Notes: a model not told the origin generated them from the sequence alone. DNA of 64,000 nt from a virus (IMGVR_UViG_3300050343_000216:1-64000); one strand, 5' to 3'; shown: positions 25,177 to 63,925, numbered from the stretch's first letter. Program-made: numbers and translations.

Positions 25177-26254
25177 ATGTACCCGCGCCTATTTCCCACC
25201 ATAAACTTGAAACAGATTGACTCAGATGGTTAAAGTAATTTATACCTCCATATCCTCCGTTATGAGTAGTTCCTCCTATATTGTAAGGAAGTCCCATCAG
25301 CAAAAGATAATTACCGGACATGTTGCCCTTGCCGGTTAGAGTTATGCGATAAGACACATAAATAATATTGCCAACTTTTCTATATAACCCTAATTGAGAA
25401 GAATATGTTTGTGACATTGGGGTAGATTGACCATATCCCTGCAAGTACGGCGTCCACGTTCCTTCTTCGTAATCGTCTAAAGCATTAGCGGCGGCTGTAT
25501 CACCGTTAAAGGTGATGCCGCCACCAGACAAAATACGCATTTTTTCTCCGGCATCGACCCTAAACTGAATGGTAGATGCTGTACCAGAGTTGGCTTCGTC
25601 GGACGCAATAATTAGATCGTCGTAGCCTGTGATTCCAATAAAGTTGTTTTGGAGATTGCTTGAGTCTCCATCAAAGCGAACCTTGGCAGTGCCACCTGTC
25701 CCTATCATGCTTAAAAGCTCTGACGGGCTGGCATTGTTAATGCCCACCTTTTCTGCGGAGCTAATCGTAATCGCAGTAGACGTAGCATTATCGTCAATAC
25801 CAGTTGATGTTAGATTGCCAATAGTGATTGCATTTGTAGTAGTTGCGCCCGCACCAGTTACTGCGGCGAGTGTAGGAGTAGCAGTTGTAACCGTAGCAAA
25901 TGAAAGAGTTCCCGAACCATTTGTAGTTAGTGCCTGACCATTGCTGCCATCAGAAACATTAAGTTCTGTAATTCCTACACTGTTTGCTTCCGGAGACGCA
26001 GAGCTGAAAGTTCTAGCAATATACATCACATAGCAAGAATCTGTTGACGCAATGGCTTCGGTAAACGTAATTGTGGCACCCGAAGCCGAATACGCAGTGG
26101 TAGGCTCCTGTCGAACATTATTTACAAAAACTGCAAGATCGTTTGCGCTTCCTACAGAATGCGTCAGCGTGTAAGCCGTTGAGCCGTCACCTGTAATCGT
26201 CTGCTTTGCAACACTTGCAAATTCTTGTACTGGTTCTACTCCTAAGAATGGCAT
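25177..26254 (-). CDS. Modular tail fibre protein; native C-terminus lost at the junction with nrdB
   Basis: VFVNNVRQEP module, GIDDNATSTAITI, KVGI shaft unit, FNGDTAAANALDDYEEGTWTP tip. The last ~33 codons of the track ORF (to 25076) are antisense nrdB. Confidence 0.75.
25461..25513 (-). repeat. TFNGDTAAANALDDYEEG repeat; 46/53 identical to 58141-58193
   Basis: Manual alignment; differences are synonymous. A partial third copy lies near 27786. Confidence 0.85.
25784..25804 (-). repeat. GIDDNA junction repeat, left array; 21 bp identical to 28232-28252
   Basis: AGCATTATCGTCAATACCAGT. Confidence 0.85.
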
Positions 26255-27357
26255 TATTTAGTCTCCAGTGCTGTGAGTCGAGCTTCTAGTTCTTTAACAG
26301 CATTGATTAGTACAGCCGACAATCTTGAGTAATCAACGGTTTTGTAAACAGTTTCTTCATCATTTGTTAATAAGGGCATAGTCATATCGTGTACGATTTC
26401 AGGCATAACTGTTTCAACTTCTTGAGCAATTACACCGTAATCAGTTTGATCTTTTCTCGACCCTTTATTCCATTTATACGTTACTCCGCGTAAGCCTTTT
26501 ACCTTATCAAGTGCACCTGTAACTGTTTGTATATTGTCCTTGAATCTTTCGTCTGAAACAGAGCTTGAGTTGGCAGTTACGCTTCCAGCAACATGAAGAT
26601 TATTCGTAGCAAGCAACATATAGTCAGTGCCCCCTGAATTCCATTTGAAATTGGCCCCTCCATATTGCCTAAACATAGTACCAGCAGCGCCCTGCTGTAC
26701 CATTTCACCGTAGTACGACGAGTTGTAAGCAACGCGGACAGCTCGCTTGTTTTCATCGCTTGAGCTTTCAGCGTGAAGAGCTGTTGTAGGGCTTGTAGTG
26801 CCAATACCTACCTTACCGCTGTCGTTGATACGTATACGTTCTGAGGTGCCGTTTCCTCTTATCTTAAAATGGCTAGCGCCAGTACCGCCCTGGTCAAAGG
26901 TAAGAGTTAAGTTTTGACCATTCTGTCCTCCTGTTGCGATTCTGTGAAATGAAGCTGTGCCGTTATCGTCACGAAGCTCAATATTCGTTGAGCCAGCGCT
27001 TCTTATCGTCAAATTGGTTCCGGGAGTGGTAGTGCCAATGCCTACGTTGCCAGCACCATCAAGAGTTATCCTATTTGCGCTATCTGTAAAATCATATAAA
27101 TGAAATTTATCGGCGCTACTATCAACATACCAAGCATAGGAACCCTGATTATTTGTTGCTTTAAAAGCGGCAAGGCCTGTTGTACTCTCTATCTCTACTC
27201 TTGCGTCTGCTGTTGTATAAACATGGAGTTTTTCTTGAGGGCTAGAAGCACCAACGCCTACTTTTTCACCAGAATCAATAGTAATCGCAGTAGCATCAGC
27301 ACTACTGTTAATAGCAGGTATGCCAATAAAGTTTGCTAAATTTCTTGCCTTTGACAT
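26254..27357 (-). CDS. Tail fibre protein with C-terminal intramolecular chaperone (peptidase S74)
   Basis: Three KVG(V/I)G..(S/T)P shaft repeats; SDERFKDNI, GVIAQEVE, VDYSRL, terminal coiled coil. Confidence 0.85.
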   Translation of the reverse strand: MSKARNLANFIGIPAINSSADATAITIDSGEKVGVGASSPQEKLHVYTTADARVEIESTTGLAAFKATNNQGSYAWYVDSSADKFHLYDFTDSANRITLDGAGNVGIGTTTPGTNLTIRSAGSTNIELRDDNGTASFHRIATGGQNGQNLTLTFDQGGTGASHFKIRGNGTSERIRINDSGKVGIGTTSPTTALHAESSSDENKRAVRVAYNSSYYGEMVQQGAAGTMFRQYGGANFKWNSGGTDYMLLATNNLHVAGSVTANSSSVSDERFKDNIQTVTGALDKVKGLRGVTYKWNKGSRKDQTDYGVIAQEVETVMPEIVHDMTMPLLTNDEETVYKTVDYSRLSAVLINAVKELEARLTALETK

Positions 27358-27394
27358 ATTTTATTCCTTAAGTGCTGTTTCTTGGTTTGGGTAA

Positions 27395-28411
27395 TTAAGC
27401 GGTTTTGTAAGTGGCACTCATATAAAGGTTTGTGCCGCCTGTGCCTAGATTGTTAGGGTAAATAGATTCGGAGTTGTTTCGACGGCCCGTGTTATACAAA
27501 TAGACGGCTGTCATTCCAGTGCCAGTTGAGCCAGCAGTGGCCCAAACACTGCTATAGCCGTAACAATATCCAATAGTAATGCTTTGATAAGCTGAGCCGT
27601 GGCAAGTAAAAGGAAGACTGCCGACAAGCAAATATCCACCCGCTGACCCAATAGACATTGAGCTAGTGTCTAATCGACAGCTAACAGTAACGAGGTCACC
27701 AATTTTTGTGTAATGTCCGACTCGAAAGCCGTAGCTAAGTGATCCAAAACTGCCAGAAGTGGGGATATACGTTGGCGTCCATGTGCCTTCTTCGTAGTCA
27801 TCAAGAAGCTCAGAAGTCATACCAGATGCATTAGAGTTGGCAGAAAAATCTATTCCTTTTCCACTTGCCATTTTTAGACCATCAGAGGTCACACGAGCAA
27901 TTTCTGTAGGCGTAACCTGAGTGCCTACTGAGGCTGTAGCGGCGGCGTCAACGTAAAAGTAAATAGCTCCGTTTCTTAAACCTATAAGCGTTTTCGCAAA
28001 AGATGTCCCTACTGACGAATGATCCCCGTTTGTTCCGCTGCCATATTGATAACCATTAGCCAGCATTAAGCCGGCACTATTATTCTGTCTATACATATTG
28101 GCGTAACTAACTGAGCTACCTTCTGTGAAACCAATATTTTTTCCTGCGGCAACACCAAGTCCAGAAGCAGAAAGGGAAGTATTGCCGACTATCACATTTT
28201 CGCTACTATCAATCGTAATTGCCGTAGCATCAGCATTATCGTCAATACCAGTCGAGGTAAATCCGGTCAAAGTTCCGACAGAAGTAATATTTGGTTGAGC
28301 CGCAGTTGTTAATGTGCCCGCTACTCCCGAATTTGTAACTGTCAGTTTCGTAGAGGTAGCACTATCATCGATACCAATAGAAAAATCATTTTTTACCCGA
28401 GAGCGAGTCAT
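27395..28411 (-). CDS. Modular tail fibre protein
   Basis: AAQPNITSVGTL, GIDDNADATAITIDSSE, LDDYEEGTWTP, YTKIGDLV tip domain. Confidence 0.8.
   Translation of the reverse strand: MTRSRVKNDFSIGIDDSATSTKLTVTNSGVAGTLTTAAQPNITSVGTLTGFTSTGIDDNADATAITIDSSENVIVGNTSLSASGLGVAAGKNIGFTEGSSVSYANMYRQNNSAGLMLANGYQYGSGTNGDHSSVGTSFAKTLIGLRNGAIYFYVDAAATASVGTQVTPTEIARVTSDGLKMASGKGIDFSANSNASGMTSELLDDYEEGTWTPTYIPTSGSFGSLSYGFRVGHYTKIGDLVTVSCRLDTSSMSIGSAGGYLLVGSLPFTCHGSAYQSITIGYCYGYSSVWATAGSTGTGMTAVYLYNTGRRNNSESIYPNNLGTGGTNLYMSATYKTA
28232..28252 (-). repeat. GIDDNA junction repeat, left array
   Basis: Identical to 25784-25804. Confidence 0.85.
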
Positions 28412-28746
28412 TAAGTGATCTCCATTAAACCTGCAACAGCATCAATTGCATTTGCTGTTCCTGCTTTAATCTTTAAAATATCTCCTGTTTCTAAAATATA
28501 TTTCTGCCCTTGCAGCACTTCTAACGTTGTATTTCCAGGTATACTCACACTTTCCAACAACTGAAATGTCGCCGCGCTTGCAGAAGCATCTGTGAATTGA
28601 ACTTGTACGGTAACTGAATTGCCAGTTTTATTTGCTAGTGCAACTCCAAGAAGTACCGAAGTCGTAGAGGACGGCGCAGTATAAAGTGTACCGTATGATG
28701 AGTTACTTGCATTTGCAAGCGCCGCATTTTTAAAAGTATTTGCCAT
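28411..28746 (-). CDS. Small fibre-associated structural protein
   Basis: MANTFKN...LYTAP...KYILETGD; follows a gene ending in AIALG. Confidence 0.65.
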   Translation of the reverse strand: MANTFKNAALANASNSSYGTLYTAPSSTTSVLLGVALANKTGNSVTVQVQFTDASASAATFQLLESVSIPGNTTLEVLQGQKYILETGDILKIKAGTANAIDAVAGLMEIT

Positions 28747-28750
28747 AATT

Positions 28751-29707
28751 TTATCCTAAAGCGATTGCCAGAGCCGTTGCATCGTCTACGGTTGCATATC
28801 CTGGAGCCGAGATATTAATTTTTCGGCCTAAATCGATAATATAGTCTACTACATCTCCGGTTACAAGTGCAGGACTAAATGTAATTGTAGAACCCGAAAT
28901 AGTAAAAGAGTCTCCAGGCTCTTGAGTAATTCCATTCACAGAAACAACTAAAGCATTTTGGTGTGATGGAGTATATGCACTACTGCTCTCTGTTAAAGCG
29001 TATGCTGCTTGTCCATTAACAGTACTAATTGCATCCAGTTTTGTTGGGTTATGAACACTTGCAAGAGAGCTTATTGTAACAATTCTAACTTCGTCTGATG
29101 CTGTAACTCCGGAGCTAAATACGACCGAAGTACCGTTTGTAGCAGTATAATCTACTCCATCATCTTGCAGTACTCCGTTGAGGAATACCATAATAGAGCC
29201 AACTTCATATAGTAAAGTTGCAGAGTTAGAGTCGGAGCCAGTAAAAGTAGTTTGATTTGCAGTTGCAGTATACTCAAACTCCGTCATACCGGCGTCTGTA
29301 TACTGGAAAACACTAGAAGCGGAAGCCCCGCTTATTGTAATTGTTTTTGTAGCGCCAGTACCAGATGCAACAACCCCTGCTCCTACAAAATTTAGGGTAG
29401 TGCCTGCTGTCGATAAAGAGCTGCCTTCATCTTGTATAGTTAGTGAGCCGCCCCCGCTTTGAGCGACCCAATCATAATCTGAACCAGTCCAAGAGAGTAC
29501 TTCATTAGCATTTGCAGTGCTTCTGTTTAAATGAGCATCTACATTTGTATTGCCATAGCTGCTAGAACCTCCTCCAATTGATTTTATAGTACCGCCGTCA
29601 TTAATATATAAAAGTTGACCAGCAGTATCAATGGCGATCTCGCCATTTACAATATCACTTGTAGAAGGTGTAGAAGTACCTCTTTTTGGCTTGATTATAA
29701 GCGACAC
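28751..29707 (-). CDS. Fibre/adaptor protein
   Basis: N-terminal KRGT..P...NGEIAID (Mtd_N-like); two V..NG..Q beta modules; C-terminal ALAIALG. Confidence 0.7.
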   Translation of the reverse strand: MSLIIKPKRGTSTPSTSDIVNGEIAIDTAGQLLYINDGGTIKSIGGGSSSYGNTNVDAHLNRSTANANEVLSWTGSDYDWVAQSGGGSLTIQDEGSSLSTAGTTLNFVGAGVVASGTGATKTITISGASASSVFQYTDAGMTEFEYTATANQTTFTGSDSNSATLLYEVGSIMVFLNGVLQDDGVDYTATNGTSVVFSSGVTASDEVRIVTISSLASVHNPTKLDAISTVNGQAAYALTESSSAYTPSHQNALVVSVNGITQEPGDSFTISGSTITFSPALVTGDVVDYIIDLGRKINISAPGYATVDDATALAIALG

Positions 29708-29721
29708 AAAAAACTCCTAAA

Positions 29722-31218
29722 TTAGAACGTGCCGCCGTCAAGTGTTGTTGTCCAAGAGGCAGACCCTGAAGTGCCCATAGTAAGGAAAGCACCGTTAGAA
29801 CTTGGTTTTACAAGTCGAGTATATCCACCGTTTGATGCAGCACCAATAAGAAGATCCCCTACTGCAGTTGCTGAAATGCCCTTAATTCGCAGGCTAGTTC
29901 CATCCGCCAGTAAAGTAATATTATCGTCATTTACGGCAAGAGTAGTTCCACTCTGGGAAATACCATCGCCCGCAGTAATTGACCCCGCTCCGGAGAATTG
30001 AGCGACTGTAAGATCTGTGCTACCAAGAGTAGGAGTACCATTATGAGTAAATACAAAGCCGCTATCTGAGTTTGTAGTTCCTTCTTCTACGAAAGTAAAG
30101 GTACCTCCAGTAAGTTCTGCTGCTACATTTGCATCTGCCGAACGAGCAGGAGAAGCTCCCGCCGTATAAATACCGTTTTCACTTGCATCCGTCTGATTTT
30201 TTACAAGTACACGATCGCCGTCTGCAAGAGTTACACCATCAAGTGTATCGTTTACATTCAGAGCTGTAGCAATTGTAATATTTGCAGTGGTAGCAACTCG
30301 TACAGAAGCTTTAACCTCTAGACCTGTTTTAACAGCATCTACATATGCTTTTGTGGCAGCGTCTTGAGCGCCTGTTGGATCCGCAACACTTGTAATTCTT
30401 GAAGAGCTCATATCAATCGTAGAAGAGCCCGCAGGATTAAAGGTTATATTACCACTCGCAGTAGTAACTGTTCCGGAAAGAACAGGAGCGGTAAGAGTCT
30501 TGTTCGTAAGAGTTTCCGCACCATCTTGGCTAGTAAGAATTGTACCTGTGGCAGGAAGCGTTAGAGTATTTGAAGCACCTGAGGAGTGTGGAGCAGACTG
30601 CAGAGTCTGTGCATGAGCATTTGTAGATCCACAATAAAATAGAATTTTAGAGTCTGATCCACCATTTTTAAGATCAATAACTCCATTGCTAATTTTTACA
30701 CCACCACTTGAAGTGCTATTATTTCCATCAATATAAACTGCGTCATCTGCATATACATCTTTTGCAAATTTAATCTTTTCTGCAGAGTTAGTAGTATCAA
30801 GAGTAATATAATTATTTGAACCTTCAGAAATTGTAAAAGAGGTTGCAGACCCGTCAAGAATCTTAAACTCAATCGCACCTCCAGTAGAAAAATCAATACT
30901 ACCGGTAGTAGGATCGATAATTAAATCGCCACTTCCAGTAGAAATTGTATTACCGTTAAGAGTAATATTGTCAACAAGCCACTCATTAACTTTCTTATTT
31001 GAGTCAACTTGTACTAACTTACTCGCTTCAACAGTTCCCGCTGCTGCAGGAAATAGACCAACATACTGGTTACCTCCAATTATAGTTACAGCATTTGAAT
31101 TTGCAGGATCTCCGATATAGAGTTTGCCATCCCCTCCAGTAAACGCTAATTCACCGGCATTTAGAGTGCCAGGAGCGGTGCTTCCAGTACTTCTTTTGAT
31201 TTTAATAATTTGAGCCAT
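29722..31218 (-). CDS. Tail fibre/shaft protein
   Basis: N-terminal IKRSTG...GELAF; DAATKAYVD; GDRVLVKNQT...NGIY; C-terminal TLDGGTF. Confidence 0.8.
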   Translation of the reverse strand: MAQIIKIKRSTGSTAPGTLNAGELAFTGGDGKLYIGDPANSNAVTIIGGNQYVGLFPAAAGTVEASKLVQVDSNKKVNEWLVDNITLNGNTISTGSGDLIIDPTTGSIDFSTGGAIEFKILDGSATSFTISEGSNNYITLDTTNSAEKIKFAKDVYADDAVYIDGNNSTSSGGVKISNGVIDLKNGGSDSKILFYCGSTNAHAQTLQSAPHSSGASNTLTLPATGTILTSQDGAETLTNKTLTAPVLSGTVTTASGNITFNPAGSSTIDMSSSRITSVADPTGAQDAATKAYVDAVKTGLEVKASVRVATTANITIATALNVNDTLDGVTLADGDRVLVKNQTDASENGIYTAGASPARSADANVAAELTGGTFTFVEEGTTNSDSGFVFTHNGTPTLGSTDLTVAQFSGAGSITAGDGISQSGTTLAVNDDNITLLADGTSLRIKGISATAVGDLLIGAASNGGYTRLVKPSSNGAFLTMGTSGSASWTTTLDGGTF

Positions 31219-31238
31219 TTATAGTCTCCAAATAAGCC

Positions 31239-32029: not shown

Positions 32030-32049
32030 TAAAGTTCTCCTATGATGAA

Positions 32050-32078
32050 ATTATAACAAAGAGGACATTTTATGTCAA
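32050..32078 (-). promoter_or_regulatory. Sigma70 promoter for the fibre operon
   Basis: Minus strand TTGACA-17-TATAAT with an A-rich upstream element. Confidence 0.85.
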
Positions 32079-32096
32079 GTTTTATTTTTTTGGTGG

Positions 32097-56398: not shown

Positions 56399-56666
56399 GC
56401 TTCATTCTCCTCTTCGACTTTGTAAAAGTTTTAACCATAGTCGGCTTACCCCCTGGGTTACCTGCAGCTCTTTTGCGTCGTATTGCAGATCGTCTTTCTG
56501 CAGGTGTCATACTAGCAGCTTTTGAGGCTGGAACACACTTTGGATATTTACCTTTTTTAGACGTCTTACGCCCACAAGGCATATACCCCCCGCCCTTTTT
56601 GGGGCGGGAGATATCTACCCAGCTTTCTTTAAACCACTTGGTTAAACCACCCTTCGGCTTTGCCAT
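56376..56666 (-). CDS. Highly basic small protein (DUF5872-like)
   Basis: GLTKWFKESWVD, PCGR, YPKCVP. Confidence 0.75.
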   Translation of the reverse strand: MAKPKGGLTKWFKESWVDISRPKKGGGYMPCGRKTSKKGKYPKCVPASKAASMTPAERRSAIRRKRAAGNPGGKPTMVKTFTKSKRRMKRGGKKKR

Positions 56667-56752
56667 TAGATTTTGTCCATAATGGGCTTACCAAATTTAA
56701 CCCAACCCCAGTGAGCTGCCATACCTACTGCAATTCCAAGAATAAAGTCCAT
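56666..56752 (-). CDS. Micro-ORF (28 aa) hydrophobic peptide
   Basis: MDFILGIAVGMAAHWGWVKFGKPIMDKI; TAATG overlaps on both sides. Confidence 0.55.
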   Translation of the reverse strand: MDFILGIAVGMAAHWGWVKFGKPIMDKI

Positions 56753-56916
56753 TACTTTTTTCCTCGCTTTTTCTTCAAAATTGCTTTTTGAAGAGCCATT
56801 GGCAGTTTCTTCTGCTTTGCGGTTAAACCCATGGACTTTTTCTTCTTTCCACCCTTTTTTGCTGCTTTAGAAGGACGCCCTCTTTTTTTACCGTAAGTTC
56901 CTTTACCTGCTGGCAT
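56752..56916 (-). CDS. Protamine-like basic peptide (54 aa)
   Basis: MPAGKGTYGKKRGRPSKAAKKGGKKKKSMGLTAKQKKLPMALQKAILKKKRGKK; about 40% K/R and no D/E; coupled. Confidence 0.65.
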   Translation of the reverse strand: MPAGKGTYGKKRGRPSKAAKKGGKKKKSMGLTAKQKKLPMALQKAILKKKRGKK

Positions 56917-57101
56917 TATTTACTCCCCATGCGGTACTTACCGCCTTTGGCTTTGTAAGTTTTTACAAGCCATCCATTTGCGTAAGCTGAAGGATATACT
57001 GCAAACTTACGCTTCGCTTGAGCTTTTACTCTTGCGTAAAGCTTTTTGTTTGTGGGAACTGGCTTCTTTTTTGCTGCTTTTCTACGCCGCCTTGCTGCCA
57101 T
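56916..57101 (-). CDS. Highly basic small protein
   Basis: PTNKKLYARVKAQAKRKF.VYPSAYANGWLVKTYK.KGGKY. Confidence 0.75.
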   Translation of the reverse strand: MAARRRRKAAKKKPVPTNKKLYARVKAQAKRKFAVYPSAYANGWLVKTYKAKGGKYRMGSK

Positions 57102-57111
57102 TTACAGTCTC

Positions 57112-57429
57112 TTAAGCTGCCCAAGGCTGCCCTGACCCCGTTGTTGGAGTGATTTTTTCTGTAAGTTGAGCATCAAGACTTGCTTCAAGACGAGTGACTT
57201 CATCACTGCCAAGTGCCGCTTTTGCCCAAGCAATTGCATCTGCTTGAGTAACCTTTGCCCATTCGATGAAAGTATCTCCAGGATCTGCTAGTCCAACAGT
57301 TCCGTATACTTCAACTACATCGTCTCCTTGAGTTTTTGTAACTCTCCAATGAACCGTTCCGACAACGTTTGTTTTGCCTCCGGAAGAGACGGCGTAATCA
57401 AGAGCTGCTACTGTCCATACGTGTGACAT
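57112..57429 (-). CDS. Fibre-associated hypothetical protein
   Basis: VGTVHW, AIAWAKAALG, terminal PW. Confidence 0.65.
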   Translation of the reverse strand: MSHVWTVAALDYAVSSGGKTNVVGTVHWRVTKTQGDDVVEVYGTVGLADPGDTFIEWAKVTQADAIAWAKAALGSDEVTRLEASLDAQLTEKITPTTGSGQPWAA

Positions 57430-57432
57430 ACT

Positions 57433-57690
57433 TTATTCTCCTGGTTTATTTGCTTCTAAATGTGCCTTATAAGCATTAACAACTGTTTCAGTGTGTACTG
57501 CTGCGCAAATCCCTTTTACTTCTGCACTTTCACTTGAAGTGTCCGCACCTGGGTCAATTACGCGCCTATGAAAAGACCGTGAAATTTCTTTATCGTCCTT
57601 TAAAATAACTGTTGCAGTTCGTACTTGTACGTGCTTGAACTGTCCTACAACTTCGATTTTATCTTCTTCTGTTTTTTCTGTTAAAGACAT
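57433..57690 (-). CDS. Fibre-associated small protein (possible chaperone)
   Basis: DKIEVVG..KHVQVRTATVI...EISRSFHR; AGGAG RBS upstream of ATG 57690. Confidence 0.65.
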   Translation of the reverse strand: MSLTEKTEEDKIEVVGQFKHVQVRTATVILKDDKEISRSFHRRVIDPGADTSSESAEVKGICAAVHTETVVNAYKAHLEANKPGE

Positions 57691-57734
57691 TGTCTTTCTC
57701 CTTTTGTCCGCCCCAATCTCCGAGTGGGGTAATT

Positions 57735-58580
57735 TTAGTGTGCAGCTGTGTACCAAATTGTACCGGCTATTCTTCCAGTTGCATTTGATGGTAATGTCGT
57801 ATGCCCATGGTTATGGGCACCACTCCACTTATACATTGTCATATATGAGTTGCCATTGCTTATCCAACCAGTAGTAAGTCCATTACCGCTTAGACTAGAA
57901 TCAAAAACCCAGGGTGTCCATGAACCCATTTGATATCTTTGTGTTCCAGTAGAATCGGTTCCTAATGACGATGCTGAAGCAGCTGCAAAGGGTAAAGTTA
58001 TAAATGTAGCTCCAGATTGATTAGAATTTGCGCTCAAAGTCATATCAACCCATACCATCACTATCCTGCCTATTTTTGTATATACACCTTGCCTAGAAGT
58101 ATATGTCTGAGTACCATTTCCATAAGTTGGGCTATATGTACCTTCTTCGTAATCATCAAGAGCATTTGCGGCGGCTGTGTCGCCGTTGAAGGTTAGGCCG
58201 TTAGCCGTTACGCGCATACGTTCTGTGTCATCAACATCAAGCCTAATATAACTACCAGCACCGCTATTACCTTTGTCAGCAGAAATAGCAAGAGCAGTGC
58301 CATCGCCTGCTGGGAAAATGCGGTGGTAAACACCGTTATAAGTACCTGCGTCAGTAATAAGCCTTATAGCGGGCTGGGGGCCAGAGCCTGACAGTGTTAC
58401 TAGGTCTGCTGGATTAGTAGTGCCCACACCCACATATTCACTAGAATTAATCGTGATTGCAGTCGCATCAGCATTGTCATCAATACCAGTCGAACTAAAG
58501 TTTGTTAAAGGATAGCTAAGATCCGCAGCAACAACAGTGTTTGCCGGAATTGCTAAACTATTAAGTTTTGTGATCGCCAT
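57735..58580 (-). CDS. Modular tail fibre protein
   Basis: YPLTNFSSTGIDDNADATAITI; VGVGTTNP; FNGDTAAANALDDYEEGT; YTKIGRIV. Confidence 0.8.
   Translation of the reverse strand: MAITKLNSLAIPANTVVAADLSYPLTNFSSTGIDDNADATAITINSSEYVGVGTTNPADLVTLSGSGPQPAIRLITDAGTYNGVYHRIFPAGDGTALAISADKGNSGAGSYIRLDVDDTERMRVTANGLTFNGDTAAANALDDYEEGTYSPTYGNGTQTYTSRQGVYTKIGRIVMVWVDMTLSANSNQSGATFITLPFAAASASSLGTDSTGTQRYQMGSWTPWVFDSSLSGNGLTTGWISNGNSYMTMYKWSGAHNHGHTTLPSNATGRIAGTIWYTAAH
58459..58490 (-). repeat. GIDDNA junction repeat, right array; 32 bp identical to 63804-63835
   Basis: + strand GCAGTCGCATCAGCATTGTCATCAATACCAGT at both sites. Confidence 0.9.
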
Positions 58581-58602
58581 TACTTATTTCCTTAATACCT
58601 TT

Positions 58603-59139
58603 TTATAAAGGCGTGGGCCAGTCACTAATAGGAGCCTTTTTAGGATTCTTTTCATCGCCGGTATCATAAAGAGCCATAAACTCAGTAAGATTTGAGCAAG
58701 CCTTAATTGAAGTCTCAATTTTATTTGAAGCAGTACGAACTGCTGCACGATAAGTTGAAACATCTGAAGGAACATTATAATCTGAGACTTCTGCCGCTTT
58801 TACTACCATCCAATCAGTTTCAGAAAGCAAATCATTTGCTTGCGCTTTCGCAGTATTAATTGCTTCTGATTTGAGTCCAAGAGTAACGACTTGCTTTCCA
58901 TCAGGGCCCATCAAAGCCTTTCCATCTTCATCCACTTCATTTTTATCGTCGAGAGCTTTCTCAACCCCTGCTGACCAATAAAAATGTGAATCGAAGGGAG
59001 CAGGATCATCTTCCCACTTCAACCCCGCATCTGTTTTTTCTTTATCTGACCAACTCATCCAGTTTGTAGGATGTGTTACGCCATTTGAATCTACCCAAGA
59101 TCTTCCTGGGCGAATTACATTTTTTTCATATAAATACAT
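58603..59139 (-). CDS. Tail fibre assembly/chaperone-like protein
   Basis: HPTNW, LGLKS, LLSETDWMVVK, YRAAVR, DWP. Confidence 0.7.
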   Translation of the reverse strand: MYLYEKNVIRPGRSWVDSNGVTHPTNWMSWSDKEKTDAGLKWEDDPAPFDSHFYWSAGVEKALDDKNEVDEDGKALMGPDGKQVVTLGLKSEAINTAKAQANDLLSETDWMVVKAAEVSDYNVPSDVSTYRAAVRTASNKIETSIKACSNLTEFMALYDTGDEKNPKKAPISDWPTPL

Positions 59140-59150
59140 TAAATTTCTCC

Positions 59151-61565
59151 TTACCTTGCGTTGGCGTATTTTTGGGGCATCTCTGCGAATGCTATGTAAA
59201 TGTAAGTGCCAGCAGATGCGTTTTGGTCTAGCCATCCTGATCCACCTTTACGTAGCTTGAATCCATTTGAAAGCATATCCCAGCGGATATAATTTGCGTT
59301 TTCAGCGTAGTTTTCGTTAGCATATATAGTTGCGGCGGCAACATTGTGAGGATCACGTTTGTTGTCTAACAAGACCCAGTTATTCCCTGCGTCCGTTCTT
59401 TTAACCATCACAAACGCTGGCCTAAACCCTGTGTAAATAAACAAGCCGTCATCAACTCCGTTGCCTGTGTAGCTACCGAACTTGCTGAATCCTTCAACGC
59501 TGTGGAAGCAGTAGGCCACCTGATTCGTACCGCCTGTAAAGGGGACATTGCTAAAAACTGAACTTGTTGGTGCTGTATAGCCGCTATCTGCTTTTGCATT
59601 TGTGTTGTTAAGCTGAAAGTAATCCAGCGACCCATCTATTACAGTTGTGCCCGTCCACCAATAGCCACCGCTTGATAAGTTCCGACTCTTTTGAATTACA
59701 AGTTGGGGCGTTGAAGATAAGCCGTGTCCAACAGTGCCAGCACTTGATCCGTTGTATGCAACAATACTAAACCCAGCATCAGTATTAGCAGACACGGTGG
59801 ACGTAATAGTGCCGTCACTGTTGCTTACGCCTGAACCGCCAGCTTTTAGCGCCCATGCCACATAAGTCTCGTTGTTTGTATTTAAACTATAAGAACTTGA
59901 ACTAGAGTAGGGGGCATCAATAGTGTTGTTGCTGTTCATGTTGAAGTCACCAAAACTATATTCTGCAATGGTGACGTTAGTGTTTAATCCAACGTCACCG
60001 CGCAACCTGTCAAATATTGTATGATTTGTTGAACTGCTACTGCGGTTTTTCATCCAAACAAAATCTACATCTAACCCTACATTAACGCTTTGGGTGTCCC
60101 CATTAGAACTGCCATTACCCGTGTACAACGCAGTATTAAAATGATCTTGTGGGCTGTTGTTTACAGCAGGGTTAAACGCCGCTACTGGAGCAGGCAGGTT
60201 AGCCGTACATAAGGCTAGGTAGCCTGCTGGTGGTGCGTAGTAGAAGTCACCAAGTCCGTTGGCGTCTGTGTTGCCTTGTGCTGTTTTGTTCCCAGCAAAA
60301 TCAGAGGCTTGACCAAAATTAACTACGCCTGTTACACCGTAATCTCCAACAAGAAACCACAAAGTACCGTCACTTGGAAGGGCAATTGTTGCTCCATTAC
60401 CTGTTTGAAGTGTTCCGTTTTTAGTAAATGTTAATTGGTTATTATCCCTATCAACGAGAGCCTGAATAACTGTTCCAGATGGAACTGTAATTGACCCTTG
60501 CCTTCCACCGTTTTCAACAAAAGTTTGTCCATAACCGGCTGCATCGTTTATTCCATAAAAACCCCTACCGGAAGTAACCAAATGGGTATGTAAATAAGGA
60601 AAAGCCGCTGTGCTTATAACCCCAATCGTGTTGTAATTTGAATTTGTTGGCGTTGTGCTAAACCAGCATTCAATAATATATTTGCCCGTTGAAGGTATAG
60701 CGATGGTTGCCTGCCCATATTTATATGCATTACTTATAGTCCATTTAAGGTCTCCTTCAGACATTGTTGCTTTATTCGTCTCAATAGAATTCAACGTAGC
60801 AAAGTTATTCGTCGGGCTATCAAGCATCCAAGACACTGCCGCTACGCCTACGCTTGTCCAGTTGTTTCCTTGACCTGAAGCGTCGATAGGATTAGTCGCT
60901 CTGGTAGCGAAATCTAAGTAGTAATCGTGACTGCCATAACTGCCTGCGTACTTCTTAGGAATCCATGTGTCTGCCTTGGTTTCGCCAAAGCTGGTGGGCG
61001 CTAATTGGGATCCGCTAATGTAATTAACTTCAGTTATGTAAAAGTTAGAATAGACGTTTTGGTTGTAGGCGTTTCTACCGATATCCTGCACTTCGGTAGT
61101 TCCAATGCGACTACCCAATCCTTGGGCTGGATACTGAGCAGAAGCAAAGGAAGTTTCTTGCTCGCCATTGACGTATATTTTAATTCTGTTGGATGCCGTT
61201 CCTTGAGTGGAGTCATATGCCACAACAATGTGATACCAAGCGGCTGGATCGCGGAACTGCTTGGAGGTGATTACTTGAATTTCTGTACTACCGTTCCACT
61301 GGTACACGTTTAGTCTTTGGTTTGTGCTATCAAAATAAATAAGAAATTCTCTAGTACTCGCAACGCCTGCACTCAGTAAGTACCCTCCGGTGGTTACGCC
61401 CCAATTTTTTACCCAAGCACTCCATGTAAATGTATCCGCATTACTGCTAGACGAGGGTGTTCTTGTGTAAAGCGTGCCGTTATTTAGGCGCGCACAGTTA
61501 CCTATCTCATGCGGATAAAAGTACGGTGAGTACATCCATTGCTGTGAACCGAAGGGACCTGACAT
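59151..61565 (-). CDS. Large virion protein with LamG/ConA-like and SPRY-like domains (putative adhesin)
   Basis: FRDPAAWYHIVVAYDSTQ (LamG); DSPTNNFAT; NFGQ...PPAGYLALCTANL; repeats ending YIYIAFAE. Confidence 0.8.
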   Translation of the reverse strand: MSGPFGSQQWMYSPYFYPHEIGNCARLNNGTLYTRTPSSSSNADTFTWSAWVKNWGVTTGGYLLSAGVASTREFLIYFDSTNQRLNVYQWNGSTEIQVITSKQFRDPAAWYHIVVAYDSTQGTASNRIKIYVNGEQETSFASAQYPAQGLGSRIGTTEVQDIGRNAYNQNVYSNFYITEVNYISGSQLAPTSFGETKADTWIPKKYAGSYGSHDYYLDFATRATNPIDASGQGNNWTSVGVAAVSWMLDSPTNNFATLNSIETNKATMSEGDLKWTISNAYKYGQATIAIPSTGKYIIECWFSTTPTNSNYNTIGVISTAAFPYLHTHLVTSGRGFYGINDAAGYGQTFVENGGRQGSITVPSGTVIQALVDRDNNQLTFTKNGTLQTGNGATIALPSDGTLWFLVGDYGVTGVVNFGQASDFAGNKTAQGNTDANGLGDFYYAPPAGYLALCTANLPAPVAAFNPAVNNSPQDHFNTALYTGNGSSNGDTQSVNVGLDVDFVWMKNRSSSSTNHTIFDRLRGDVGLNTNVTIAEYSFGDFNMNSNNTIDAPYSSSSSYSLNTNNETYVAWALKAGGSGVSNSDGTITSTVSANTDAGFSIVAYNGSSAGTVGHGLSSTPQLVIQKSRNLSSGGYWWTGTTVIDGSLDYFQLNNTNAKADSGYTAPTSSVFSNVPFTGGTNQVAYCFHSVEGFSKFGSYTGNGVDDGLFIYTGFRPAFVMVKRTDAGNNWVLLDNKRDPHNVAAATIYANENYAENANYIRWDMLSNGFKLRKGGSGWLDQNASAGTYIYIAFAEMPQKYANAR

Positions 61566-61574
61566 AGTTTATCC

Positions 61575-61988
61575 TTAACTAAACGCGAGCTGAGGGGCGC
61601 CTAACAAAATACGTCCCGATGCAGCAACAATATAAGGCACAATATCCGTGGTCGATGCGGCAGAAGACAAGGTAAGTCCTGCCCCACCCGTAGTCTCATA
61701 GTCAGTGCCGAGAGACACCGTTCGACTTCCTGTGCCATCCTGAATAAACACGATAAACCCAGACTGGCCTACAGCTTCAGTTGTAGGATTTGCTAACGTA
61801 ACATTACCTGTCAATGTAAGTACAAAGTTTTGATAGGTAGCAAAATCAAGAGTAGTTGAGCCCGAAGCATTCGCAGTTTGAGTAGCTGCAGTTGCACTTT
61901 TACTGATAGAAACAGTACCCGCATCGGCAATAACAAAAGCTGCATTTGCAGTTTTGCTTTGAAGATTTTGTACATTAAGAGTAGACAT
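61575..61988 (-). CDS. Fibre-associated structural protein
   Basis: LTLTGNVTLANPT...GQSG.I..IQDGTGSRT. Confidence 0.7.
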   Translation of the reverse strand: MSTLNVQNLQSKTANAAFVIADAGTVSISKSATAATQTANASGSTTLDFATYQNFVLTLTGNVTLANPTTEAVGQSGFIVFIQDGTGSRTVSLGTDYETTGGAGLTLSSAASTTDIVPYIVAASGRILLGAPQLAFS

Positions 61989-61997
61989 TTTTATTCC

Positions 61998-62546
61998 TTA
62001 AATAATTTTCCATTGCGCCCCGTTTGCTACTGTTACTGCTGAGCCATTAGCGATAGAAATTGGTCCTGTGGACATAGCATTATCAGTTCCAGCAATAGTT
62101 GTATTTGTAGAAACTGTTTGTGCATGAGTTAAAATGGGGGCACTAAGAGAAACTAGCTTGCTACTTGCAATTGTAATTGCTGTAGCCGTAGCATTGTCAT
62201 CAATACCGGTTGAAGAAAAATTGGTTAGTGGGTAACTTAGTTGAGTCTCCCCTACAGTATTATCAGCAGGAGTACCAATACTCAATACATCTCCGAGTAC
62301 TAAAATATAATCAATAGAATCATTCGAAGTTAGTGCACTTGCAAAAACAATTGTGGATCCAGATACTGAATATGCAGTATCGGGCGCCTGGGTAACACCG
62401 TTTAGAGAAACAATAAGATTTCGTGCACTTGCAGGAAAATACGCAGTGCTATTGCGTGTAAGGTTAAAAGTCGCCGTCGCAGAAGTCGTAATACTATCAA
62501 GAAGTATAAAATTTCCTGCTTTTGGCTGTTTACCTATAAATGCCAT
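61998..62546 (-). CDS. Short modular fibre/adaptor protein
   Basis: VSLNGVTQAP module; YPLTNFSSTGIDDNATATAITI; NAMSTGPI...W tail. Confidence 0.75.
   Translation of the reverse strand: MAFIGKQPKAGNFILLDSITTSATATFNLTRNSTAYFPASARNLIVSLNGVTQAPDTAYSVSGSTIVFASALTSNDSIDYILVLGDVLSIGTPADNTVGETQLSYPLTNFSSTGIDDNATATAITIASSKLVSLSAPILTHAQTVSTNTTIAGTDNAMSTGPISIANGSAVTVANGAQWKII
62190..62219 (-). repeat. GIDDNA junction repeat, right array
   Basis: AGCATTGTCATCAATACCGGTTGAAGAAAA. Confidence 0.85.
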
Positions 62547-62560
62547 TATTTAGTCTCCAA

Positions 62561-63925
62561 TCAAATCGCCGCAATAATAAAGGCTAGTAACTCTGAATAA
62601 CGTATACCCATACGGCTTTTTTGTTCGCCAGTTTCCTCATCTTTCCAAGAGTCGTAGGTAAACATTCCATACCGCCCTGCGTCTAAACTTTCGGCTTCAA
62701 ACGCGGCTTTTAAATCTTGGGCGACAATTCCAAAATGGATGCGAGCTACTTCGTCACTATCTGAGTTATTATCTTTTGCCGCCACAGCATCTTTCCATCG
62801 ATATTTACGCAAAAGTCCTTTTGCTGCCACAGCTACACGCTTTTCTGCATCCGTTGGTGCTTCGATATCCTGCTTTTCATTGCGATCTGAAGTGTTTATA
62901 CTCCCCGTACCCGCATAGACAGTGTGGAATCGAGCACTAGTTTGACCTAAGTATACTGCGTTATCTCTTGGTACTCCTAGCTCTTTGCAGGGAAAAACTG
63001 CGTTTGCGCTATCAACAAACCGCAACCCAGCATCCCCTTGCTGTATATAAATACTGTCGCTGTCCTTATCGCCAATAGCCCCTACAGTACTGTTATTTCT
63101 AAGAAAAATAATATGATCGCCGCTATTGGTAAGCCTATTACTCACAATTGTTCTTGCTCCGCTCTTGCAGAAAGACGCGTCCCCTCCCTCATTAATCCGA
63201 ACACCTGTACTACTATTGTTCTCTGCGGTTTTTCCAACTAGCACTGTACCGTTTGAGGTAAGACGCATACGCTCTTGCAAGCCATCACTGTCGAAAGTAT
63301 GAAACTCTATAGCGCCCCCACTAGCGTCTGTATTAAGTCTTGCTCTTACTGTATCTTTACCTTCATAACAAAAATCTAGAGAGGCTTCATAACCGCTCCC
63401 TCCGCCGTTGACAATTTTTACTCGAGAAGAGTGACTACTATTATCTTCTCGTCCAACTAATAAATGGCCGAAATGATTTAGTTGCATATGGTTGTAAAAT
63501 GTAGTATCATCTCTTGTATAAAACTTTAAACAAGCTTCTCGTGCACTAACATCTGTCCAATTACTTCGAATTGCGGAACCGTAAGCTGAAGTGCTTCCTG
63601 AGTAGTATCCACCAAAATTAATTGAAGCATGGTCATCGCCGTCGGCGGGGCTGGCACTGAAATGCAGTAAATCAACTTGAGCGCCCCCGGCTCCTGAGTT
63701 TGTTGATGTAACTCTTATCGCGTCTCCACTTCCATTGATATGTAAAAGAGCTGCGGGAGAAGCGGTACCAATACCTACTTTCTCTGAACTATCAATTGTA
63801 ATAGCAGTCGCATCAGCATTGTCATCAATACCAGTTGAAGAAAAGGTTGTAAGCGGGTAAGTAAGATCCGCGGCAACGATAGTGCCTGCGGGTACACCTA
63901 ATGAGTTGATGGTTGTACGAGCCAT
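62561..63925 (-). CDS. Modular tail fibre protein with peptidase S74 chaperone
   Basis: YPLTTFSSTGIDDNADATAITIDSSEKVGIG; TSDRNEKQDI; HFGIVAQ; GIRYSELLAFI. Confidence 0.85.
   Translation of the reverse strand: MARTTINSLGVPAGTIVAADLTYPLTTFSSTGIDDNADATAITIDSSEKVGIGTASPAALLHINGSGDAIRVTSTNSGAGGAQVDLLHFSASPADGDDHASINFGGYYSGSTSAYGSAIRSNWTDVSAREACLKFYTRDDTTFYNHMQLNHFGHLLVGREDNSSHSSRVKIVNGGGSGYEASLDFCYEGKDTVRARLNTDASGGAIEFHTFDSDGLQERMRLTSNGTVLVGKTAENNSSTGVRINEGGDASFCKSGARTIVSNRLTNSGDHIIFLRNNSTVGAIGDKDSDSIYIQQGDAGLRFVDSANAVFPCKELGVPRDNAVYLGQTSARFHTVYAGTGSINTSDRNEKQDIEAPTDAEKRVAVAAKGLLRKYRWKDAVAAKDNNSDSDEVARIHFGIVAQDLKAAFEAESLDAGRYGMFTYDSWKDEETGEQKSRMGIRYSELLAFIIAAI
63804..63835 (-). repeat. GIDDNA junction repeat, right array
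   Basis: Identical to 58459-58490; 63815-63844 also matches 62190-62219 at 29/30. Confidence 0.9.

What the first reader, a model, noticed from the sequence alone, without database searches (positions are those of the whole stretch)
25177..63925. Candidate mix-and-match fibre system: two arrays of fibre genes sharing a DNA-conserved junction
Seen: six genes (25177, 26254, 27395, 57735, 61998, 62561) have the layout [variable anchor]-STGIDDNA(D/T)(A/S)TAITI-[variable shaft and tip]; the junction is degenerate in 26254. Anchors and tips occur in different combinations. The near-identical anchor NSL.(I/V)PA.T.VAADL.YPLT.FSS leads to an LDDYEEGT tip in 57735 but to an S74 tip in 62561. The FNGDTAAANALDDYEEGT tip occurs on unrelated anchors in 25177 and 57735. 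The V.(V/L)N.V.Q.P anchor occurs in 25177 and 61998 with different ends. The junction DNA is 32/32 identical between 58459 and 63804 while the flanking codons differ at many synonymous sites. Inference: the junction is a built-in crossover point for swapping receptor-binding ends without an invertase or reverse transcriptase, giving a large host-range repertoire on top of gpJ.
Basis: partly seen in the sequence, partly recalled or inferred. Interest (0 to 1): 0.82.

Follow-up and report, generated by a model that had tools for sequence, protein, structure and literature searches.

The report
Swap joints in marine phage fibres
An uncultured marine T5-like phage carries six tail-fibre genes built from interchangeable anchor, shaft and tip blocks joined by a short invariant peptide, and related phages and seawater samples show blocks swapped at that joint; this is a well-supported new example of a known way in which phages rebuild their host-recognition proteins.

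Summary
Five fibre genes carry S-TGIDDNA(T/D)(S/A)TAITI exactly ("J1"; 0 matches expected by chance). The sixth gene, 26254-27357, has a degenerate copy, and so does the N-terminus of 27395-28411. The 32/32-nt identity is real.

J1 is not special to this genome:
- At least 118 IMG/VR contigs carry it, and 1,191 metagenomic proteins match the junction.
- It sits at residues 17-950 of 280-1,500-aa fibres, behind many unrelated anchors.

Breakpoints pile up at J1. Of 78 in-register internal ends of high-identity DNA matches, 67 fall 42-90 nt after the J1 start, in 3% of the sequence. A metagenomic protein (P0174) has the first 44 residues of gene 57735 (100% identical), then is 96% identical to gene 27395, switching inside J1. 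Seawater contigs break at J1, at a second joint J2 (LDDYEEGTW) and at stop codons.

Evolutionary mix-and-match at the joint is shown. A built-in switch within one genome is not:
- All copies are direct repeats.
- Across the virome, synonymous sites in J1 vary freely.
- The 32-nt run is not unusual (3.7% of unrelated pairs).

The principle is known from T-even gp37/gp38 and coliphage tailspikes. This scan found similar fibre joints in other genomes, but not this motif.

The parts
25076..26254 (-). Fibre gene w25076 (392 aa): about 150-aa N-terminal anchor domain (phrog_18673 type), J1, shaft, J2, distal tip
   Evidence: identical to database protein P0265
25763..25807 (-). J1 junction STGIDDNATSTAITI in w25076
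25454..25480 (-). J2 junction LDDYEEGTW in w25076
26254..27357 (-). Fibre gene w26254 (367 aa): about 13-aa anchor, degenerate J1, beta-prism-type shaft repeats, Peptidase_S74 chaperone end
   Evidence: (PF13884, E 5.9e-19)
27277..27318 (-). Degenerate J1 (PAINSSADATAITI) in w26254
27395..28411 (-). Fibre gene w27395 (338 aa): anchor carrying a degenerate J1 copy, then J1, shaft, J2, tip. Its J1-to-end part recurs at 96% identity behind the w57735 anchor in P0174
28337..28381 (-). Second, degenerate J1-like copy (SIGIDDSATSTKLTV) 42 aa upstream of the true J1 of w27395
   Evidence: similar tandem copies occur in L026, L039 and L050
28211..28255 (-). J1 junction STGIDDNADATAITI in w27395
27779..27805 (-). 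J2 junction LDDYEEGTW in w27395
57735..58580 (-). Fibre gene w57735 (281 aa): 29-aa anchor, J1, shaft (aa 50-128), J2, distal tip (aa 144-281, confidently folded)
   Evidence: the shaft recurs at 92% nt identity in L132
58449..58493 (-). J1 junction in w57735; 58459-58490 is identical to 63804-63835
58134..58160 (-). J2 junction LDDYEEGTY in w57735. Seawater contigs diverge here (loose ends at 58138; joint 57734->58136)
61998..62546 (-). Short fibre gene w61998 (182 aa): 111-aa anchor domain, J1, short C-terminal end. Relatives keep the anchor (79-96% identity) with longer, different ends
   Evidence: P0281, P0361, L144_10956
62169..62213 (-). J1 junction STGIDDNATATAITI in w61998
62561..63925 (-). 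Fibre gene w62561 (454 aa): 29-aa anchor, J1, shaft, Peptidase_S74 chaperone end
   Evidence: (PF13884, E 5.3e-08)
63794..63838 (-). J1 junction in w62561. Seawater contigs diverge at 63838, 63815 and 63780
57433..57696 (-). Small gene directly downstream of the J2-tip fibre w57735. Homologues (60-70% identity) follow J2-tip fibres in L131, L132 and L152; possible tip-specific helper
   Evidence: function is inferred
58603..59235 (-). Tail-fibre-assembly-like protein, part of a conserved three-gene set
   Evidence: (phrog_4912, weak)
59151..61565 (-). 804-aa LamG + DUF7483 virion protein, itself a mosaic of conserved and variable segments
61575..61988 (-). 137-aa protein whose C-terminal ~96 aa are 78-91% conserved in nearly all relatives (63% over 125 aa in L136) and fused to the ends of larger proteins in some
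28411..31218 (-). Three further genes of array 1 without J1: a 111-aa conserved protein, a 318-aa fibre and a 498-aa fibre
32097..38555 (-). gpJ-like central tail fibre (2,152 aa), heading array 1
   Evidence: phrog_31, E 8.5e-114

Best explanation
The six genes are side or accessory tail fibres of an uncultured marine T5-like siphovirus. Each is a chain of exchangeable blocks:
- an N-terminal anchor, which fits the fibre to this virion;
- J1, the invariant peptide (F/L)(T/S)S-TGIDDNA-x-x-TAITI-D;
- a shaft of NVGIGTxxP...L.V repeats, the trimeric beta-prism type seen in S74 fibres and Bdellovibrio MAT fibres;
- then either J2 (...AANxLDDYEEGTW) plus a compact distal receptor-binding domain, or a tip ending in a self-cleaving S74 chaperone.

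J1 and J2 are kept as peptides in thousands of fibre genes of marine phages with unrelated anchors. Any two such genes that meet in one cell therefore share an in-frame patch of similar DNA exactly at a boundary where a chimera still folds. Many pairs share a cassette of about 140 nt at about 88% identity, with exact runs of 20-100 nt. Ordinary homologous or short-homology recombination in that patch puts a new shaft or tip on a resident anchor.

Shown: the architecture, the virome-wide spread, the concentration of breakpoints at J1 and J2, and concrete recombinants among this phage's own relatives.

Inferred: that the exchange changes host range; that it happens mainly between co-infecting genomes rather than between the two arrays of one genome; and that the peptide is conserved for a structural reason (the start of the trimeric shaft), with its use as a crossover site a by-product that selection then exploits.
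For: Architecture.

Spread of J1:
- 1,191 proteins match the 66-aa junction at E<=1e-3.
- 18,449 cluster representatives are related to w57735.

Combinatorics: 75 complete genes fall into 44 anchor clusters and 59 downstream clusters, and one anchor cluster is joined to 11 different downstream clusters.

Breakpoints:
- 67 of 78 in-register internal ends of HSPs at >=85% identity lie at +42..+90 nt from the J1 start, a bin holding 3% of the sequence.
- 19 of 24 matches that run from a gene start (or contig edge) through the anchor stop at +44..+85.
- For J2, 30 of 31 internal ends lie within 0..+60 nt.

Relatives of this phage:
- P0174 has the w57735 anchor and J1 at 100% over 44 aa, then w27395 at 96% over 291 aa.
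- P0125 and P0126 combine the w62561 anchor and middle with the w26254 C-terminus; P0132 has a C1q tip; P0146 has a J2 tip.
- About 50 proteins carry the 30-aa anchor with J1 at residue 31 (122 in one) and downstream parts of 170-1,036 aa.
- In L144 the w25076 anchor is 86% identical up to J1 and is then joined directly to J2.

Population data: seawater contigs diverge from the window at 63838, 63815, 63780 and 58488 (J1), at 58138 (J2), and at 57733 and 62559 (stop codons). The 30 letters shown after 63815 are identical to the w25076 J1 codons.

Shaft type: the junction profile matches the repeats of PDB 8OND and 8OJN (PMC10769870).

Precedent for the mechanism: PMC3157838 (citing Tetart 1996, 1998) and PMC10408124.
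Against: - No experiment links any of these fibres to a receptor or a host.
- The DNA of J1 is not specially conserved across the virome, so it cannot be called a dedicated recombination signal.
- Breakpoints would also cluster at a domain boundary if recombination were random and only boundary chimeras survived. The data cannot separate a crossover hot spot from a survivorship hot spot.
- BLAST extends matches through any conserved patch, so the true crossover may lie anywhere within about -70..+90 nt of J1.
- The seawater evidence comes from short-read contigs. The one contig that joins 63803 to 58459 crosses a 32-nt repeat, which a 31-mer assembler can mis-join.
- The monomer AlphaFold model gives J1 a pLDDT of about 50, so its structural role is unproven.
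Confidence: 0.8

Rival explanations
1. Intragenomic cassette system. The two arrays act as a reservoir, and gene conversion or unequal crossover at J1 between paralogues within one replicating phage genome regularly produces progeny with re-paired anchors and tips. This would be a population-level bet-hedging device.
For: - The genome has 5 exact and 2 degenerate J1 copies, whereas 10 of 10 other genomes checked have one.
- Synonymous identity inside J1 is 0.64 against 0.41 expected from codon usage, with no excess in the flanks.
- A contig in run X10 joins 63803 to 58459 across the 32-nt identity, while depth on the two 'parental' continuations is low (1.2-1.3 against 6.5).
- P0174 joins modules that sit in different arrays in this genome.
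- Anchor types of array 2 sit in the array-1 position in L144 and L149.
Against: - All copies are direct repeats, so reciprocal exchange deletes or duplicates 2.4-38 kb, including the head and tail genes.
- Nine of ten pairs share only 8-21 identical nt.
- The within-genome excess is marginal against an empirical null (P=0.017-0.08).
- Runs of 32 nt or more occur in 3.7% of unrelated pairs.
- All six genes are complete ORFs rather than silent cassettes.
- No dedicated recombinase was found in the window.
- The X10 joint can be a 31-mer assembly artefact.
Confidence: 0.12
2. Pure structural conservation. J1 is kept only because it nucleates or caps the trimeric shaft, or docks a common partner. 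The mosaicism reflects ancient domain shuffling by any mechanism, and J1 plays no role as a homology patch.
For: - The peptide is invariant while its codons vary.
- J1 occurs twice in tandem within single proteins (L026, L039, L050, w27395), like a structural repeat.
- Its second half (ITIDxxxNVGIGT) is the general shaft repeat also present in PDB 8OND and 8OJN.
Against: - Many exchanges are recent. Partners are 88-97% identical in DNA right up to J1 and unrelated beyond it.
- 54 gene pairs share only a J1 cassette of about 140 nt at about 88% nt identity, which is enough homology for recombination.
- P0174 switches parents inside J1 with 100% and 96% identity on the two sides.
Confidence: 0.07
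3. Chance or codon bias. The shared motif and the 32-nt identity are coincidental.
For: The 32-nt run alone is not exceptional among J1-bearing genes.
Against: 5 exact motif matches against 0 in 100 shuffles; 12 invariant alignment columns across 99 sequences; the breakpoint enrichment.
Confidence: 0.01

Closest known systems
Motif-mediated exchange in T-even distal tail-fibre and adhesin genes (gp37 conserved motifs, gp38 glycine-rich motifs; Tetart et al. 1996, 1998, as cited in Trojet et al. 2011, PMC3157838)
   Same: Short conserved motifs separate variable segments of host-recognition genes. Natural and laboratory recombinants have crossovers within or near the motifs, giving chimeric adhesins.
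   Different: There is no sequence relationship to gp37 or gp38. J1 lies between the virion anchor and the shaft rather than inside the adhesin tip. It is shared by fibres with many unrelated anchors in uncultured marine phages. Here five to seven copies lie in six separate genes of one siphovirus. No crosses have been done.
Conserved DNA motifs flanking the receptor-binding domain of tailspikes in six lytic coliphage genera (Virol J 2023, PMC10408124)
   Same: A conserved anchor with an exchangeable receptor-binding part; conserved stretches before and after the exchanged part are proposed as recombination hot spots across genera.
   Different: Those motifs are defined as DNA (63-81% identity, 20-95 bp) in 10-20 genes, and the authors saw no correlation with the number of recombination events. 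Here the joint is an invariant peptide found in well over a thousand genes, and breakpoint enrichment is measured.
Bdellovibrio MAT (mosaic adhesive trimer) fibres, S74 and non-S74 (Caulton et al. 2024, PMC10769870; PDB 8OND, 8OJN)
   Same: The shaft repeat is the same (TIDxxGxVGIGTxxPxxxLHV, E 1.8e-4 to the junction profile). There are many paralogues in one genome with mosaic tips, some ending in an S74 chaperone.
   Different: MAT proteins are bacterial surface fibres. The TGIDDNA half of J1 was not matched in them.
Branched multi-receptor-binding-protein sets of Ackermannviridae and similar phages (e.g. PMC11414711; only its abstract, as listed, was read)
   Same: Several receptor-binding proteins are encoded in one genome, and new ones can be acquired without disrupting the receptor-binding complex (abstract of PMC11414711). 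From my own knowledge, the anchors are conserved and the distal parts exchangeable.
   Different: Those are tailspikes with T4 gp10-like docking domains (my own knowledge); none was detected here, and the docking order of the six fibres is unknown.
Programmed tropism switching: diversity-generating retroelements, and Mu Gin / P1 Cin invertible fibre segments (my own knowledge of these systems)
   Same: Alternative receptor-binding ends on a constant N-terminal part.
   Different: No reverse transcriptase, no template repeat, no invertase and no inverted repeats are present (all J1 copies are on one strand).

Membership tests
Motif-mediated modular exchange of fibre genes (T-even gp37/gp38 type mechanism) | Short conserved motifs bound variable segments of the host-recognition gene | tested here: met
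   J1 has 12 invariant columns in 99 sequences, with flanks at 29% mean column identity. J2 has invariant L, D, Y, E and G.
Motif-mediated modular exchange of fibre genes (T-even gp37/gp38 type mechanism) | Natural variants have recombination breakpoints within or next to the motifs | tested here: met
   67 of 78 internal ends lie at +42..+90 nt of J1; 30 of 31 lie at 0..+60 nt of J2; the P0174 switch is inside J1; seawater loose ends.
Motif-mediated modular exchange of fibre genes (T-even gp37/gp38 type mechanism) | Crosses yield chimeras with changed host range | not testable with these tools
   The phage is uncultured and its host unknown.
Motif-mediated modular exchange of fibre genes (T-even gp37/gp38 type mechanism) | Sequence homology to gp37 or gp38 | tested here: not met
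   No gp37 or gp38 family appears in the Pfam hits. PHROG hits to 'long tail fiber distal subunit' families were found only for w26254, one of the two S74-ended fibres. This is a functional analogue, not a family member.
Peptidase_S74 (intramolecular chaperone) fibres | C-terminal PF13884 domain above the gathering score | tested here: met
   w26254 scores 68.6 bits and w62561 33.5 bits against a cut-off of 22. The other four fibres lack the domain.
Beta-prism shaft fibres of the MAT type | Repeats of the (I/V)DxxGNVGIGTxxPxxxLxV type that align to solved beta-prism fibres | tested here: inconclusive
   The profile hits 8OND at E 1.8e-4 and 8OJN at 1.3e-3, over the repeat only. The monomer model of the shaft has low confidence.
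Diversity-generating retroelement | A reverse transcriptase gene near the variable gene | tested here: not met
   PF00078 gives 0 matches in the 75-kb record; the controls were positive. The record is 78% complete.
Invertible fibre segments (Gin/Cin/shufflon) | A site-specific invertase and inverted crossover sites | tested here: not met
   PF00239 gives 0 matches. All J1 copies are in direct orientation. Tyrosine recombinases were not searched.
T5-like siphoviruses | T5-type replication genes plus a siphovirus tail-tip set (tape measure, gpM/L/K/I/J-like proteins) | tested here: inconclusive
   PHROG hits to a D5-like regulator, a split NAD-dependent ligase, a DnaB-like helicase, a primase, an SbcC-like subunit, the tape measure protein and gpJ. 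No phylogeny was done, and megablast found no nucleotide match to cultured phages.

The most novel reading that the evidence does not exclude
J1 and J2 act as a community-wide splice standard. Marine phages with unrelated anchor types, and therefore probably different hosts, keep the same in-frame joints, so that any fibre shaft or tip in the local gene pool can be captured onto any resident anchor. In multi-copy genomes like this one, conversion between paralogues makes each burst a mixture of fibre combinations. If so, the joints are maintained partly for evolvability, and they could be used directly as universal splice sites for re-targeting uncultured-phage fibres.
Probability: 0.2. Interest if true: 0.75.

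Novelty: new member of a known kind. Interest (0 to 1): 0.5.

Why it matters
- It gives a concrete, measurable rule for how host-recognition fibres of abundant uncultured marine phages are rebuilt: anchor | J1 | shaft | J2 | tip, with breakpoints at J1, J2 and the stop codon.
- J1 and J2 lie in stretches with no Pfam match in the fibres scanned. Neither peptide string was found in 8.4 million searched papers. J1 was also absent from cultured-phage records by tblastn and from all but 4 of 185,579 prokaryote genomes. These very common module borders are therefore unannotated.
- Marking the borders would improve annotation of 'hypothetical' virome proteins.
- It would let anchor (phage lineage) and tip (receptor or host) be analysed separately in host prediction.
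- It offers natural splice points for chimeric fibres in laboratory phage-host work.
- The principle itself is not new.

Tried and rejected
- Megablast of 57000-64000 against cultured phages: no match.
- tblastn of a 46-aa J1 segment against cultured phages: no match. BLAST's low-complexity filter was on in this search and may have masked the query. Longer fibre queries hit cultured cyanophages and pelagiphages only in the shaft or tip, not in J1.
- Pfam on the junction alignment: no family.
- Literature search for the peptide strings GIDDNA, TGIDD, DDYEEG and NVGIGT: nothing relevant.
- AlphaFold2 monomer of w57735: the tip is well folded (aa 144-281), but J1 and the anchor have pLDDT about 50, so it gives no structural reading of J1. 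Foldseek matches of the tip (a part of the Det7 tailspike gp208, reovirus sigma1 and adenovirus fibre heads) are weak, with TM-score <=0.54 normalised to the target and <=0.36 to the query, and were not used for function.
The crossover in P0174 is therefore mapped at protein level only.
- DNA-level selection on J1 across the virome was considered and rejected: observed/expected synonymous identity is 1.22 in J1 against 1.17 in the flanks.
- The 32-nt run as evidence of special within-genome homogenisation was rejected.
- DGR and invertase mechanisms were rejected.
- Parts of the window without contig cover in the seawater runs were not interpreted.

Full report
**1. What the window is**

The window is the first 64 kb of a 75,299-bp IMG/VR virus record that CheckV rates 78% complete.
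- The plus-strand left arm carries T5-like replication genes: a D5-like regulator, a split NAD-dependent ligase, a DnaB-like helicase, a primase and an SbcC-like subunit.
- The minus-strand right arm is a siphovirus structural module: terminase, portal, major tail protein, a 1,150-aa tape measure, gpM/L/K/I-like proteins and a 2,152-aa gpJ-like protein.
- Fibre genes lie in two places: downstream of gpJ (25076-31218) and upstream of the terminase (57735-63925).
- Sampled 31-mers of 57000-64000 are found in 20 seawater or viral-metagenome runs from 14 studies. This is a marine phage that recurs in nature.

**2. Checking the observation**

- Five genes contain S-TGIDDNA-(T/D)-(S/A)-TAITI exactly. 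I call this J1. A degenerate back-translation finds these five sites and no others in the record, and none was found in 100 shuffles.
- Gene 26254-27357 has a degenerate copy. Gene 27395-28411 has a second degenerate copy 42 residues upstream of its true J1.
- The anchor and tip combinations are as described.
- The 32-nt identity between 58459-58490 and 63804-63835 is exact.
- The first gene ends at 25076, not 25177. An identical 392-aa protein was among the database proteins fetched here.

**3. Is the DNA identity more than codon bias?**

Against this phage's own codon usage, yes. Codons for identical residues are the same in 64% of pairwise comparisons inside J1, against 41% expected (P<0.0002). 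The flanks show no excess.

Against an empirical null the signal fades:
- Five J1 copies taken from five unrelated viral contigs give 45 +/- 7% (P=0.017).
- Five copies from AT-rich contigs give 51 +/- 9% (P=0.08).
- 3.7% of unrelated gene pairs share an exact run of 32 nt or more at the junction.
- Across 97 non-redundant genes, the ratio of observed to expected synonymous identity is 1.22 in J1 and 1.17 in the flanks. At single positions GAT/GAC and AAT/AAC are close to 50:50.

What is conserved globally is the peptide, not the DNA. Within-genome homogenisation is at best weakly indicated.

**4. J1 is a virome-wide module border**

- A search with the 66-residue junction found 1,191 proteins at E<=1e-3 in one length band. 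Almost all are 'hypothetical' metagenome proteins.
- An exhaustive search with the 281-aa fibre w57735 found 18,449 related cluster representatives.
- J1 lies anywhere from residue 17 to residue 950 of proteins of about 280-1,500 aa. It follows a handful of recurrent pre-junction types (PNITSVGTLTGFTS, GSSAAAGTFTTFTS, ATTTNAVTVGNLTS, GDxIDGGTISNFTS, LSYPLTxFSS) and is usually followed by DSSENVGIGTxSP.
- No Pfam family covers it, and the peptide string was not found in the paper library.
- Cultured-phage records match these fibres only in the shaft or tip.
- Only 4 short contigs, all from marine metagenome-assembled genomes, among the genomes of 185,579 prokaryote species contain it.
- Ten other viral genomes of 26-49 kb that carry J1, six of them at least 90% complete, have one copy each. 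Five exact copies plus two degenerate ones is unusual.

**5. Breakpoints**

I compared the 114 non-redundant J1-bearing coding sequences at the DNA level and kept matches of at least 85% identity over at least 120 nt.
- Of 78 in-register match ends that lie inside both genes, 67 fall 42-90 nt after the J1 start. That bin holds 3% of the sequence.
- 24 matches run from a gene start (or contig edge) through the anchor, and 19 of these stop at +44..+85. One pair, for example, is 95% identical over 1,619 nt up to +44 and unrelated afterwards.
- 54 matches are 'cassette only': about 140 nt from -72 to +69 at about 88% identity, between genes that differ on both sides.
- At protein level, 75 complete genes fall into 44 anchor clusters and 59 downstream clusters. 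One 100-aa anchor is joined to 11 different downstream clusters.
- The same test on the second motif, J2 = L(D/N)DYEEGT(W/Y/F), gives 30 of 31 internal ends within 60 nt of its start.

The fibres are therefore anchor | J1 | shaft | J2 | tip. The shaft of w57735 alone (between J1 and J2) recurs at 92% nt identity inside a different fibre of contig L132.

**6. Relatives of this very phage**

Proteins that are 88-98% identical to the first 60 residues of w62561 continue in different ways:
- a different shaft but the same S74 end (P0124);
- an extra shaft repeat, then the w62561 middle, then the C-terminal ~180 residues of w26254 from the other array (P0125, P0126). Here the switch is at a GK(L/V)GIGTxSP shaft repeat, not at J1;
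- a C1q-type tip (P0132).

A more distant relative, P0146 (83% identical over the same stretch), continues with a J2-type tip.

About 50 proteins carry this 30-aa anchor, with J1 at residue 31 in all but one (residue 122) and downstream parts of 170-1,036 aa.

The cleanest case is P0174, from JGI and ENA metagenomes. Its residues 1-44 are identical to w57735. From the J1 region (residue 25) to the end it is 96% identical (278 of 291) to w27395, which in the window has a different anchor and sits 30 kb away.

Syntenic contigs tell the same story:
- In L144 the w25076 anchor is 86% identical up to '...NLTATGI' and then joins directly to '...NYLNDYEEGTW'. The shaft has been removed between J1 and J2.
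- In L144 a w61998-type gene sits in the array-1 position.
- In L149 a w57735-type anchor gene follows the w28411-like gene.

The two arrays therefore draw on one pool.

**7. Population data**

Contigs of four seawater runs were laid on 56500-64000. They leave the window sequence at these places:
- 63838 and 58488, the first base of J1, with other anchors upstream;
- 63815, inside J1. The next 30 letters are identical to the w25076 codons for TSTAITISSA, and only 6 nt are shared at the switch, so this is not a k-mer artefact;
- 63780, which is +58 from the J1 start;
- 58138, inside J2;
- 57733 and 62559, the stop codons of w57735 and w62561. The alternative end at 62559 reads ...KELEARLTA, like w26254.

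One contig in X10 joins 63803 to 58459 across the 32-nt identity. That gives the w57735 anchor on the w62561 shaft, and the two parental continuations have low depth there. From my own knowledge, Logan assemblies use 31-mers, so a mis-join across a 32-nt repeat cannot be excluded. I count this contig as suggestive only.

**8. Mechanism and its limits**

- All J1 copies are direct repeats. Reciprocal exchange inside one genome would delete or duplicate 2.4-38 kb, so a fast intragenomic switch is unlikely.
- No reverse transcriptase or serine invertase is present.
- The best reading is ordinary homologous or short-homology recombination between different genomes, or between sister copies, at in-frame patches that are conserved because the peptide is needed.
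- The second half of J1 (ITIDxxxNVGIGT) is the first unit of the shaft repeat, which aligns to the trimeric beta-prism fibres of Bdellovibrio (PDB 8OND and 8OJN; PMC10769870).
- J1 also occurs in tandem inside single proteins.
- The monomer AlphaFold model folds the distal tip well but not J1, so the structural role is inferred.
- Whether breakpoints cluster because crossovers occur there or because only boundary chimeras survive cannot be decided from sequence.

**9. Comparison with what is known, and verdict**

Recombination at conserved motifs that swaps adhesin specificity is established for T-even gp37 and gp38 (PMC3157838, citing Tetart 1996 and 1998). It has been proposed for coliphage tailspikes flanked by conserved DNA motifs (PMC10408124).

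The present case has no homology to those genes. It involves a different border (anchor to shaft), is far more widespread, and is documented with quantitative breakpoint enrichment and concrete recombinants.

Earlier notes of this scan report similar 'fibre joints' in other genomes, but none with this motif.

I file it as a new, very clear member of a known kind. Interest is moderate: high for annotation and engineering of marine phage fibres, low for principle.

Noticed in passing
window 59151-61565: The 804-aa LamG + DUF7483 protein is itself a mosaic. The near-identical relative L126 (96.7% over 3.9 kb, with w62561 100% identical) drops to 59% protein identity starting at 60782. Five relatives share the same segment borders (about 60786, 60328, 60108, 59846, 59753, 59519), and seawater contigs break at 60789, 60915 and 59756. 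It may be a second hypervariable receptor-binding protein with conserved and variable segments.
   Followed up: partly
window 61575-61988; L132 4621-6975, L133 5073-6356, L135 5750-6988, L142 5443-6987: The C-terminal ~96 residues of the 137-aa protein are 78-91% conserved in nearly all of the 19 related contigs (63% over 125 aa in L136). In several contigs they form the C-terminal end of much larger proteins (413-785 aa). This looks like another portable module, always directly upstream of the LamG/DUF7483 gene.
   Followed up: partly
window 58603-61988: The three-gene set (137-aa protein, LamG/DUF7483 protein, ~175-aa tail-fibre-assembly-like protein) recurs across the 19 IMG/VR contigs, complete wherever the contig extends far enough (L138 lacks a detectable 137-aa homologue), while the fibre genes around it differ.
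   Followed up: partly
window 57433-57696; L131 6324-6578, L132 3406-3654, L152 9949-10200: A small gene of about 85 aa directly follows J2-tip fibres here and in three relatives (60-70% identity). The J2-tip fibre w27395 has no such gene behind it; downstream of w25076 was not examined.
   Followed up: partly
L144 9949-10929: A natural shaft-less variant: the w25076-type anchor is joined at 'TGI' of J1 straight to '...NYLNDYEEGTW' (J2) and a tip. The shaft is therefore dispensable for an open reading frame.
   Followed up: yes
L026 (7519, 7828), L039 (2454, 2580), L050 (64, 382); window 28337-28381: J1 or J1-like units (TGIDDNATSTALTV) occur twice within single fibre proteins, 42-106 residues apart. 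This suggests J1 is also a structural repeat unit.
   Followed up: no
Genome contigs L384-L387: The exact J1 peptide pattern occurs in only 4 short contigs (2-7 kb) of marine metagenome-assembled genomes among 185,579 prokaryote species, against at least 118 in IMG/VR. The motif is essentially confined to free (probably lytic) marine phages, and these MAG contigs may be mis-binned phage DNA.
   Followed up: no
window 7729-9486: The NAD-dependent DNA ligase is split into two adjacent genes (311 aa and 251 aa) that match the N- and C-terminal halves of the same PHROG family. From my own knowledge, phage T5's ligase is split the same way.
   Followed up: no
window 29722-31218 and 28751-29707: Two further fibre genes without J1 start with the KRSxxxGxxPxxxxLxxGE(L/I)A...G.LY N-terminal motif. 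The same motif heads J1-bearing fibres elsewhere (L031, L049), so this is another anchor type in the same pool.
   Followed up: no
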